Shown here: in pieces, positions 13,230 to 15,009 of the stretch
Layout of the letters: each line of letters starts with the position of its first letter
How positions within the stretch are numbered: the stretch's first letter is position 1
Source of the DNA: the human T2T-CHM13v2.0 reference genome, Homo sapiens
Assembly (NCBI RefSeq): GCF_009914755.1
Contig: NC_060925.1
DNA: 64,000 bases
Reading direction: 5' to 3' (one strand)
The notes under the pieces: model-generated
What the model was told of the DNA's origin: nothing
The model's database searches: none
The model's input: only the letters and a program-made list of their open reading frames with translations
Translations under genes and position numbers: made by a program

Positions 13230-14400
13230 CAGCCTGTAAGTGTTCCTATGTTATACAAATCATCATAGCCATCATCAGTGTCGATGAGGGTTGAAGACAT
13301 GAGAAAAACTGGGATTCTGGATGTAATAATTTCATAAATCTCTGTGAAGTATTTGGTCTTCTTTACCACTCTGCAAAGTGCTCTGTCTTTCTACACAATC
13401 TTCTATATCCTGTTAGGGCTATTAGTTTGCTTTTGTTCCCTGGATTATCTCATTCTTCTGGATTGTGAGTTGTGGTCTCCCTGTTTTGTTCTTTTTCATG
13501 TTGCAGGCTTTTCTTGAATGCCTGATTATCCTTGATTGCATTCATATTTAGAAATGAGGCTACAAAGCCGAGTGTTCCATATTGTTCAGTGGGGATTGTT
13601 AACTGATGAGGCTTTCCTGTAAGGAAAGCAGACAAGAGAGATGTTTAGTTGGAGGCAAAATCCTAAATGCTAGAATATGAAAGGCTTTGCTCTAAGGTAC
13701 CAGCAGCCATTCTTGCTGCCTGGTTTTCCAAGAACAGTTTACTTTTTTTCATGGGGGTTCTGGGAAGTAGACTATTCTTTTTACAGAAGTTCAGCCTCAT
13801 GTCTTCTCTTTCTGCTCTGAGTAGAGACATGTTCACAAGTCCAGAGCCTCTCCAGAGTTCTGATAGGCAGACTTTCTTCTGCTGCTAGCCTCTTGAGCAC
13901 TGAAGACTGTGACTTCTTTCCAGCTTCATCAGTTACCATTTATTTTATTTGCCACAGATTTGTTAAAATGTCTTCTATGGAGGCCTCTTCCTGCTTTTTT
14001 CCTTTATTGTGGACATGTACCATTTTTATTCTTTGCCTGTCATCTTCACAGCGTCTTGGGACCAAGAAGAGATAAATTTGTGCAGGTGTTTAATTCACCA
14101 TCTTGAACCAGAAACCCCAGCAATAGTAGTATTAAGAGATGCAGTTTTATACTTTATCACTTTAGAATAGTTTTTCTTAGTCCATTTTAATGAGCTTTTG
14201 ATACTTAGCAGGATTGGAGCTGCTCTTGTACATAAGGCACTTGTATGGGAAAGTTTCTGTGGGAAATATGGGAGTGACACGATCATCCTTGGCCTCAGAA
14301 TCTCCTGTCCAATAAGACTCTAGTGTGAAGATACTAGTCATGTATGGTAAATTCTGGTAGAATTCCAAAAGAGTTTCAAAAAGTTATGAAAAATCATATG
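13230..14400 (-). mobile_element. Probable fossil R4/Dong-clade non-LTR retrotransposon (Mam_R4-like)
   Basis: Broken minus-strand frames give, in order, IKEK/AGRGLHRRHFNKSVANKINGN, KKVCLSELWRGSGLVNM, TLGFVA..AIKDNQAF and RRLCRKTEH, resembling R4 post-RT motifs; judged by eye only. Confidence 0.45.
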
Positions 14401-15009
14401 CAGAAGACATCACTTAAGTGTTGTTAGGGTTTAAAAACTGTTAACTAATATATGGAATAAATGTTTTATTTGTTTCTTCTGTGAAGATAGAATTTCTTAG
14501 AGCAGAGATTTGGGTTGAAAGGGGGGACCTTTCCAATAAAAAATGGCCTGAATAGTGACTCAGAGAAATGAAAGCCTGCCAGGCGCAGTGGCTCATGCCT
14601 GTAATCCCAGCACTATGGGAGGCCAACGTGGGTGGATCACCTGAGGTCAGCAGTTCGAGACCAGCCTGGATAACATGGTGAAACCCTGTCTCTACTAAAA
14701 ATACAAAAATTAGCCAGGCATGATGGCACATGCTTGTAATCCCAGCTACTCAAGAGGCTGAGGCACGAGTTATCATTTGAACCCTGGAGGTGGAGGTTGC
14801 AGTGAGCAGAGATCGCGCCTCATAGCTAAATATGAACACAATCAAGGATAATCAGGCATTCAAGAAAAGCCTGCAACATGAAAAAGAACAAAACAGGGAG
14901 ACCACAACTCCCAATCCAGAAGAATGAGATAATCCAGGGAACAAAAGCAAACTAATAGCTCTAACAGGATACAGAAGAGTGTATAGAAAGGCAGAGTACT
15001 TTAGAGAGT
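13368..15009. repeat. 193-bp inverted repeat (arms 13368-13560 and 14817-15009)
   Basis: Manual reverse-complement alignment: ungapped, about 13 mismatches. Confidence 0.95.
14577..14819 (+). mobile_element. Alu (S-type), 3'-truncated, no A-tail
   Basis: Alu sequence stops at gagatcgcgcc and runs directly into non-Alu sequence. Confidence 0.92.

What the first reader, a model, noticed from the sequence alone, without database searches (positions are those of the whole stretch)
13368..15009. 193-bp templated inverted duplication fused to a broken Alu: potential long dsRNA stem in MAEL intron 8
Seen: 14817-15009 is the ungapped reverse complement of 13368-13560, with about 13 mismatches (~93% by hand count) and a 1256-bp spacer. 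The copy begins exactly where the Alu at 14577 stops (…gagatcgcGCC|tcat…), and GCC is shared by Alu and template as a 3-nt microhomology. The Alu has no tail or TSD. Just past the copy lies atgcccagcc, which resembles the last bases of an antisense Alu. One difference is TG versus CA, the pattern left by one ancestral CpG decaying on opposite strands. Inference: an old template-switch repair event (FoSTeS/MMBIR or Pol theta-type), possibly resolving an inverted Alu pair. The MAEL pre-mRNA could therefore fold into a ~190-bp non-Alu stem of retroelement-like sequence ~1 kb upstream of exon 9. That would be a candidate ADAR or Dicer substrate, or a splicing modulator, inside a germline transposon-silencing gene.
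Basis: partly seen in the sequence, partly recalled or inferred. Interest (0 to 1): 0.8.

Follow-up and report, generated by a model that had tools for sequence, protein, structure and literature searches.

The report
Inverted-copy repair scar in MAEL intron
A 193-base stretch of a human MAEL intron was copied backwards into a break between two oppositely oriented Alu repeats about 1.3 kb away, leaving an ordinary but cleanly readable DNA-repair scar that could fold into a long RNA hairpin, for which no function is shown.

Summary
Bases 14817-15009 are the ungapped reverse complement of 13368-13560, with 180 of 193 matching and 1256 nt between the arms.

- **Not a young repeat family.** Searches of the whole human assembly found only these two close copies.
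- **The left arm is the source.** It lies inside an old dispersed repeat. A profile built from 24 other copies follows the left copy 138 nt past the inner arm end, but stops in the right copy exactly at the Alu junction.
- **The right arm sits between two broken Alus.** One is a sense Alu cut at ...GATCGCGCC, and its last GCC is shared with the template. The other is the last 13 nt of an antisense Alu, at 15010-15022.
- **Mismatch pattern.** Mismatches crowd at both arm ends (p = 0.00035) and changes occurred in both arms. This suggests an old event whose centre was later homogenised.
- **RNA fold.** The RNA stem is thermodynamically real, with 183 of 193 positions paired. Nothing here shows editing, small RNAs or a splicing role.

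This is a new member of a known kind of mutation scar. Interest is low to moderate.

The parts
13368..13560 (+). Left arm: the template (source) of the inverted copy
   Evidence: Arm of the inverted repeat. It lies inside an old dispersed repeat whose homology continues without a break to 13698.
13370..13698 (+). Copy of an old, unnamed interspersed repeat family that contains the left arm and runs 138 nt past its inner end
   Evidence: An nhmmer profile of 24 other genomic copies, aligned without the window, hits 13370-13698 at 74.9 bits, E = 8e-23. Pairwise identity to other copies is 64-75%.
13561..14576 (+). Single-copy spacer, the loop of the fold-back. Together with the Alu it makes the 1256-nt distance between the arms.
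   Evidence: The genome search found no other copy of it.
14577..14819 (+). Sense Alu, complete at its 5' end and cut at its 3' end, with no tail and no target-site duplication. Its last 3 nt (GCC, 14817-14819) are shared with the copy.
   Evidence: Alignment with 13 other Alus of the window. Rfam SRP-type matches at 14578-14694 and 14713-14823. No second copy of its flank.
14817..15009 (+). Right arm: the templated reverse-complement copy of 13368-13560
   Evidence: The old-repeat profile matches it only from 15008 to 14816, at 34.5 bits, and stops at the Alu junction.
15010..15022 (-). Remnant of an antisense Alu: its first 13 nt, which differ from the usual Alu start only at CpG positions
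   Evidence: Pattern search: 3 matches in 64 kb, the other two at the 5' ends of full Alus (31491, 40988), with 0.03 expected by chance.

Best explanation
This is the scar of one old DNA-repair event in the primate germline. Two Alus once lay tail to tail in MAEL intron 8: a sense Alu starting at 14577 and an antisense Alu ending at 15022. A break or stalled fork in this unstable inverted pair removed everything from about position 262 of the sense Alu to position 14 of the antisense Alu. The free 3' end, which ended in ...GCGCC, folded back about 1.26 kb. It paired through 3 nt (GCC with GGC at 13558-13560) with its own or the sister strand, and was extended for about 190 nt along 13560 down to 13368. 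It was then joined to the other broken end inside the antisense Alu. The result is a 193-nt inverted copy of unique intron sequence that fills the gap.

What is shown: the copy, its direction (left arm is the source), both broken Alus and the microhomology. What is inferred: the break, the enzymes and the single-step order of events.

After the event both arms collected substitutions. The central 120 nt or so was probably made alike again later, by gene conversion or a second template switch between the arms. As a by-product, MAEL pre-mRNA can fold into a long stem. The most likely consequence is none beyond incidental A-to-I editing of an intron.
For: Arms and uniqueness:
- The arms are 193 nt, ungapped, with 13 mismatches.
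- Only two close copies exist in 3.1 Gb.

Direction of copying:
- The left arm is embedded in an old repeat. The profile of 24 other copies scores 74.9 bits on 13370-13698. It scores 34.5 bits on the right copy, where the match ends at 14816 (an earlier profile of 12 copies gave 57.3 against 27.4 bits).
- No family homology continues on the far side of the Alu, in 14400-14576.

Junctions:
- The sense Alu is cut at GATCGCGCC, where 11 of the 13 other Alus of the window run on past that point and 9 of them read ACTGCACTC there.
- GCC is shared with the template.
- An antisense Alu 5' end abuts the copy.
- No target-site duplication was found for the sense Alu.

Published parallels:
- Germline fold-back inverted duplications have spacers of 766-70,466 bp, and 2-8 bp of inverted microhomology at 13 of 21 junctions (PMC3907307, passages read).
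- Template-switch mutations create inverted copies and hairpins, the longest found in human haplotypes being 318 bp (10.1101/2021.11.26.470150, passages; PMC5453318, passages).
- Closely spaced inverted Alu pairs are depleted and thought to break through hairpins (PMC3215922, passages).

Later homogenisation:
- Eight mismatches fall in the first 50 nt, 1 in the middle 121 nt and 4 in the last 22 nt (p = 0.00035 in 100,000 random placements).
- Derived states occur in both arms: 4 in the right arm, 2 in the left, 4 ambiguous, 3 where neither arm has the family majority.
Against: - No outgroup genome could be consulted. The pre-event state, the existence of a full antisense Alu, the size of the deletion and the single-step order are therefore all inferred.
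- The antisense Alu is witnessed by only 13 nt.
- The loss is very unequal, about 20 nt plus the tail of one Alu against about 270 nt of the other. A simple hairpin excision does not predict that.
- No microhomology can be shown at the second junction (15009/15010).
- The end-clustering of mismatches, and three pairs of adjacent mismatches, could instead be errors of a low-fidelity polymerase near the junctions. In that case the event would be much younger than the overall 6.7% divergence suggests.
- A TTTAGAG repeat at 15000-15006 and 15025-15031, on either side of the Alu remnant, is not explained.
Confidence: 0.6

Rival explanations
1. Stepwise history. A larger inverted duplication arose first, by any mechanism. 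Alus then inserted into or beside it, and a later microhomology-mediated deletion removed the Alu tail together with the inner part of the right arm. On this reading the Alu/arm junction is a deletion junction, not a template-switch junction.
For: The 3-nt GCC overlap fits a microhomology-mediated deletion as well as a template switch. The 16.7% divergence of the arm ends (12 of 72 positions) would allow an event nearly as old as the Alu, which has 22 of 217 non-CpG differences from the window majority.
Against: It needs at least three or four events where one suffices. Both ends of the right arm would have to coincide independently with broken Alu ends. No trace of the old repeat lies on the other side of the Alu.
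Confidence: 0.15
2. Reverse-transcriptase-mediated filler. At a double-strand break, DNA synthesis that was copying 13368-13560 switched onto an Alu RNA at about position 262 and ran to its 5' end. This would be an endonuclease-independent, non-classical Alu insertion, so the sense Alu was never a normal insertion.
For: The Alu lacks a tail and a target-site duplication but is complete at its 5' end. That is the published signature of endonuclease-independent insertions (PMC1920257, seen in the search listing and abstract only).
Against: The Alu is markedly more diverged (about 10% from the window majority, 3 of 13 CpGs kept) than half the arm-to-arm divergence (3.4% per arm). It therefore looks older than the copy, unless the centre of the arms was homogenised. 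This reading does not explain the antisense Alu remnant on the other side.
Confidence: 0.08
3. The arms are two independent insertions of one repeat family in opposite orientation, or the terminal inverted repeats of a single DNA transposon spanning 13368-15009.
For: The arm sequence does belong to an old dispersed family. At least 30 distinct places in the genome match it.
Against: Other copies are 60-86% identical to each other and 64-75% identical to the window copy, whereas the arms are 93% identical. There are no target-site duplications around either arm or around the whole unit. The right copy is cut by Alu ends on both sides, and the family homology does not resume beyond the Alu. No second copy of the 1.6-kb unit exists in the genome.
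Confidence: 0.02
4. Whatever its origin, the stem is a working RNA element of MAEL: a long double-stranded region that is edited by ADAR or cut into small RNAs, or that changes exon 9 splicing. The near-identity of its central 121 nt would then be kept by selection.
For: In the minimum-energy fold of the 1642-nt stretch, 183 of 193 arm positions pair in register, and the duplex energy is -315.7 kcal/mol. The centre has 1 mismatch in 121 nt. Published work shows that template-switch hairpins in introns have become miRNA genes (PMC10710096, abstract and passages).
Against: Only 3 of the 8 transitions keep a G-U pair in the sense RNA, about what chance gives. Selection for pairing does not explain why both arms also keep the same sequence. 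No Rfam family matches the arms. The intron already holds inverted Alu pairs, for example 188 nt at 86%, as most human introns do. No paper on editing or hairpins in this intron was found.
Confidence: 0.07

Closest known systems
Template-switch mutations under the four-point model (Loytynoja and Goldman 2017, PMC5453318; later work 10.1101/2021.11.26.470150 and PMC10710096)
   Same: A stretch is replaced by the reverse complement of nearby sequence, which creates an inverted repeat and an RNA hairpin in an intron. The four switch points can be named here: 14816-14819, 13560-13557, 13368 and 15010.
   Different: Those searches were built for short-range events. The longest reported in human haplotypes is 318 bp, most are tens of bp, and filters allowed at most 250 bp between points 1 and 4. 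Here the jump is about 1.26 kb and both flanks are broken Alus.
Fold-back inverted duplications of the human germline (Hermetz et al. 2014, PMC3907307)
   Same: A single-copy spacer lies between the direct and inverted copies (here 1256 nt; published range 766-70,466 bp). A few nt of inverted microhomology sit at the spacer/inversion junction (here 3 nt; published 2-8 bp).
   Different: The published cases are duplications of kilobases to megabases with terminal deletions and dicentric intermediates. Here synthesis stopped after 193 nt and the end was rejoined locally.
Loss of closely spaced inverted Alu pairs ('Alu pair exclusions', Cook et al. 2011, PMC3215922)
   Same: A tail-to-tail inverted Alu pair appears to have been destroyed by a deletion.
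   Different: The gap was filled with a templated inverted copy of non-Alu sequence. The loss is very unequal between the two Alus. The original spacing of the pair is unknown.
Inverted-repeat Alu pairs as double-stranded RNA substrates of ADAR (general knowledge, recalled)
   Same: A long intramolecular duplex in an intron of a transcribed gene.
   Different: The arms are not Alu. At 93% over 193 nt and 1.26 kb apart, they pair better and lie closer than the Alu pairs of the same intron (74-86%, 4-8 kb apart). Editing was not examined.

Membership tests
Template-switch / fold-back inverted duplication | One segment is the reverse complement of a nearby segment on the same chromosome | tested here: met
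   193 nt, 180 matches, no gaps, 1256 nt apart
Template-switch / fold-back inverted duplication | The copy derives from local unique sequence, not from a mobile family; source and copy can be told apart | tested here: met
   Only 2 close copies in the genome. Old-repeat homology runs through the inner boundary of the left arm only.
Template-switch / fold-back inverted duplication | Microhomology at the switch junction | tested here: met
   GCC at 14817-14819 belongs both to the Alu and to the reverse complement of 13558-13560. The second junction shows no overlap that can be demonstrated.
Template-switch / fold-back inverted duplication | The ancestral or outgroup sequence lacks the copy and is collinear across the site | not testable with these tools
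   No primate or other mammalian genome is held here. Only the window's own assembly could be searched.
Independent insertions of one repeat family (e.g. an inverted transposable-element pair) | Each arm has its own target-site duplication, and the arms are no more alike than other family members | tested here: not met
   No duplications at the arm ends. The arms are 93% identical, against 60-86% among other copies.
DNA transposon with terminal inverted repeats | Target-site duplication around the whole unit, and other genomic copies of the unit | tested here: not met
   The flanks ...CTTTACC and ACTATGCC... share no direct repeat. No other copy of the 1.6-kb unit exists.
Endonuclease-independent (non-classical) Alu insertion | No target-site duplication, 3' truncation or missing tail, insertion at a break | tested here: inconclusive
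   Absence of a duplication and of the tail is met. The same features follow from a later deletion, and an empty site cannot be checked.
Functional double-stranded RNA element (ADAR or Dicer substrate) | A long intramolecular duplex in a transcribed strand | tested here: met
   183 of 193 positions pair in the minimum-energy fold. The arms lie in the sense strand of MAEL intron 8, by the hub's annotation.
Functional double-stranded RNA element (ADAR or Dicer substrate) | Clustered A-to-I editing or small RNAs on the arms, or an effect on splicing | not testable with these tools
   No RNA-seq or editing database is held. Two searches of the papers found nothing on this intron.
Functional double-stranded RNA element (ADAR or Dicer substrate) | Substitutions biased toward keeping the pairing | tested here: inconclusive
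   3 of 8 transitions give G-U in the sense RNA and 5 give A-C or C-A. That is no excess, but the test has little power.

The most novel reading that the evidence does not exclude
The hairpin is not just a scar. Its central 121 nt, with a single mismatch, would be kept alike because MAEL pre-mRNA uses it as a germline double-stranded RNA. That RNA would be a non-Alu ADAR or Dicer substrate made of old-repeat sequence inside a transposon-silencing gene, and it would tune MAEL splicing or feed small RNAs. A milder version is that repeated template switching between the arms keeps the stem intact, as proposed for RNA hairpins in PMC8794818 (seen in the search listing only).
Probability: 0.06. Interest if true: 0.6.

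Novelty: new member of a known kind. Interest (0 to 1): 0.27.

Why it matters
This is a tidy natural example of how a break in an inverted Alu pair can be patched with a backwards copy of nearby DNA. The template, the direction of copying, the microhomology and both broken ends can all be read from a single genome. At 193 nt, and with a 1.26-kb jump, it lies between the short template-switch mutations catalogued in primates and the large fold-back duplications seen in patients. It therefore hints that these belong to one continuum. It also shows how a long non-Alu RNA hairpin can appear in an intron in one step. No evidence ties it to MAEL function, so its practical weight is small unless testis RNA data show editing or small RNAs.

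Tried and rejected
- **Naming the old repeat family.** No Dfam or RepeatMasker is available. Rfam shows only Alu/SRP-type matches and a sub-threshold Alu-derived mir-1268 match.
- **Errors made while copying.** I tested whether the mismatches at the arm ends are all errors made during synthesis of the copy. Polarising with 24 other family copies gave 4 sites derived in the right arm, 2 in the left, 4 ambiguous and 3 where neither arm has the family majority. A pure copying-error reading is therefore not supported. The test is noisy, because the family is only about 65-75% similar and its alignment over 13370-13420 has low confidence.
- **Target-site duplications.** The sense Alu's flank has no second copy. 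The antisense remnant's flank gives only chance-level matches: 24 found against 18 expected.
- **The 13-nt remnant as a second templated copy.** I considered that 15010-15022 copies the sense Alu's own start. The two differ at 5 of 13 positions, 4 of them CpG positions (read). A copy ending exactly on the first Alu base would be a coincidence. I judged this less likely than a genuine antisense Alu, but it is not excluded.
- **A simple inversion with staggered breaks.** Rejected, because Alu positions 1-13 are present on both sides.
- **Supplement of PMC10710096.** The one file held contains no 'MAEL'. Other supplements of the template-switch papers were not seen and might list this locus.
- **Absolute dating.** Only relative figures could be had. 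The arms differ at 6.7% overall, 16.7% at the ends and 0.8% in the centre. The Alu differs at about 10% of non-CpG sites from a mixed-subfamily majority, which is an overestimate.

Full report
**1. The observation**

The arms are 13368-13560 and 14817-15009, 193 nt each, 93% complementary and 1256 nt apart. A base-by-base count gives 13 mismatches and no gaps, 8 transitions and 5 transversions. Similarity stops abruptly at all four arm ends. Within intron 8 (5234-16057, by the hub's annotation) it is the best inverted repeat of 60 nt or more. It is also the only one of the five found that is not an Alu pair. Chance cannot give 180 of 193 matches.

**2. Not a repeat-family pair**

Three searches of the window's own 3.1-Gb assembly used the arm alone, the left arm with 1.8 kb of context, and the right arm with 1.2 kb of context. 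They returned only the two arms as close matches. The tool warns that its counts are lower bounds and that very common words are skipped. Even so, a young family would have been seen.

One weak match, 81% over 57 nt, led to an old dispersed family. Two further searches, seeded with other copies, gave 13 and 17 more places at 70-86% identity over 50-180 nt, with some overlap between the two lists. The window's left copy is 64-75% identical to these. The arms are therefore far more alike (93%) than independent members of that family are.

**3. Which arm is the source**

I aligned 24 other copies without the window and built a profile from them. Four results follow.
- It matches the left copy over 13370-13698 (74.9 bits, E = 8e-23). 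The match runs 138 nt past the inner end of the arm.
- It matches the right copy only over 15008-14816 (34.5 bits) and stops at the Alu junction.
- An earlier profile of 12 copies gave the same picture, 57.3 against 27.4 bits.
- No family homology resumes on the other side of the Alu.

The left arm is therefore original sequence, continuous with its surroundings, and the right arm is a partial copy of it. At the outer end (13368) the family alignment is too weak to say anything.

**4. The junctions**

*Inner junction.* Aligned with 13 other Alus of the window, the Alu at 14577 is complete at its 5' end. It stops at ...GAGATCGCGCC, where 11 of the 13 others run on past that point. Nine of those read ACTGCACTC there, then CAGCCTGGG... 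and a tail. Rfam's SRP model marks both Alu monomers at 14578-14694 and 14713-14823. The last GCC (14817-14819) is also the reverse complement of 13558-13560, so the junction carries 3 nt of microhomology. The 13 nt just upstream of the Alu have no second copy nearby, so there is no target-site duplication.

*Outer junction.* The 13 nt at 15010-15022, read on the minus strand, fit an Alu 5'-end pattern that allows only CpG-type transitions. The pattern has 3 matches in 64 kb. The other two are the starts of the full Alus at 31491 and 40988, and 0.03 matches are expected by chance. The copy is thus wedged between a sense Alu that has lost its last 20 or more nt and its tail, and an antisense Alu of which only the first 13 nt survive. 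Both Alu pieces contain positions 1-13, so they are two Alus and not one Alu split by an inversion.

**5. Mechanism**

The simplest history is a tail-to-tail inverted Alu pair that broke. Such pairs are depleted in the human genome when closely spaced, and are thought to form hairpins that lead to double-strand breaks (PMC3215922, passages read).

The 3' end left in the sense Alu folded back and paired through GCC/GGC 1.26 kb upstream. It was extended along 13560 down to 13368, and was then joined to the other end inside the antisense Alu. The geometry is that of the human germline fold-back inverted duplications in miniature. Those have a single-copy spacer of 766-70,466 bp, and 2-8 bp of inverted microhomology at 13 of 21 sequenced junctions (PMC3907307, passages read).

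The structure also fits the four-point template-switch model (PMC5453318, passages). Inferred events of that kind reach 318 bp in human haplotypes (10.1101/2021.11.26.470150, passages).

Whether the synthesis was MMBIR-like, Pol-theta-like or simple snap-back priming cannot be read from the sequence. The break, the deleted material and the single-step order are inference.

**6. Age and later history**

The mismatches are not spread evenly. There are 8 in the first 50 positions, 1 in the next 121 and 4 in the last 22. A run of 121 nt with at most one mismatch arose in 0.035% of 100,000 random placements. I considered two readings.

*(a) A low-fidelity polymerase made errors near both switch points.* Replicative rearrangements are reported to be error-prone (PMC4352052, a Discussion passage citing Carvalho et al. 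2013; the cited paper itself was not read).

*(b) The arms diverged evenly and the centre was later homogenised.* This would be by gene conversion or by a second template switch between the arms, the classic Ripley mechanism (PMC5453318).

I polarised the 13 sites with the 24 other family copies.
- Four sites are derived in the right arm: 13394, 13398, 13466 and 13553.
- Two are derived in the left arm: 13374 and 13380.
- Four are ambiguous: 13386, 13417, 13539 and 13540.
- At three sites neither arm has the family majority: 13373, 13405 and 13552.

Changes in the source arm speak against (a) as the whole story, so I lean to (b). The family is distant and the test is noisy.

At 13539-13540 the family splits T12/C8 and A11/G9.

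For relative age, the Alu differs from the majority of 14 window Alus at 22 of 217 non-CpG columns and keeps 3 of 13 CpGs. This overestimates its age, because subfamilies are mixed. The arms differ at 6.7% overall, or 3.4% per arm, and at 16.7% in the end regions, or 8.3% per arm. Either figure lets the Alu predate the event. From recalled ages of middle-aged Alus, I would put the event somewhere between roughly 10 and 35 million years ago. That is inference, not a measurement.

**7. The RNA**

The 1642-nt stretch folds with 183 of the 193 arm positions paired in register. The two arms alone give -315.7 kcal/mol. The duplex holds a perfect run of 72 bp, and 121 bp with one mismatch. The stem is therefore real as thermodynamics, and it lies in the sense strand of MAEL intron 8, 1048 nt upstream of exon 9.

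Nothing suggests it is used.
- Of the 8 transition differences, 3 keep a G-U pair in the sense RNA and 5 do not.
- No Rfam family lies on the arms.
- The intron already contains inverted Alu pairs: 188 nt at 86%, and 131 nt at 74%.
- Searches for MAEL with A-to-I, intron, testis and editing gave 2 papers, neither on this. A search for MAEL with 'intron 8' gave 1 unrelated paper.

Template-switch hairpins in introns can become miRNA genes (PMC10710096, abstract and passages). Those stems are 30-55 bases long, not 193. Incidental ADAR editing of such a stem is likely wherever the gene is transcribed (general knowledge, recalled). A function is not indicated.

**8. Verdict**

The function is untested, and I rate it unlikely. 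This is a new member of a known kind of mutation scar. It is of some didactic interest because so much of the event can be read from one genome. The decisive missing piece is an alignment with other primates, which these tools do not hold.

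Noticed in passing
window 13370-13698: A copy of an old, unnamed interspersed repeat family. At least 30 other places in the human assembly match it at 60-86% identity. 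Its best-kept core corresponds to about 13500-13560. The family could not be named without Dfam or RepeatMasker.
   Followed up: partly
window 15000-15006 and 15025-15031: The 7-mer TTTAGAG occurs just inside the outer end of the right arm and again just past the 13-nt antisense Alu remnant. It looks like a target-site duplication around the remnant. It may be chance, or it may have guided the rejoining. In the right arm the motif exists only because of the two adjacent mismatches at 13373-13374.
   Followed up: partly
window 15032-15061: A T-rich tract (T runs broken by G, C and A) follows the Alu remnant's flank. A stretch covering it (15033-15084) matches 4 other genomic places at 83-89%. 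It is possibly the decayed tail and 3' end of an antisense retroelement.
   Followed up: no
window 14711-14762: A weak, sub-threshold Rfam match to mir-1268 (25.9 bits against a gathering score of 83) lies inside the right monomer of the Alu. It is an Alu-derived look-alike, not a gene call.
   Followed up: no
window 40993-41268 and 41271-41372: The Alu at 40993 ends in a long A run that directly abuts the annotated U13 snoRNA-like locus (41271-41372). The arrangement suggests that the U13 copy is a retro-inserted pseudogene or shares an insertion site with the Alu.
   Followed up: no
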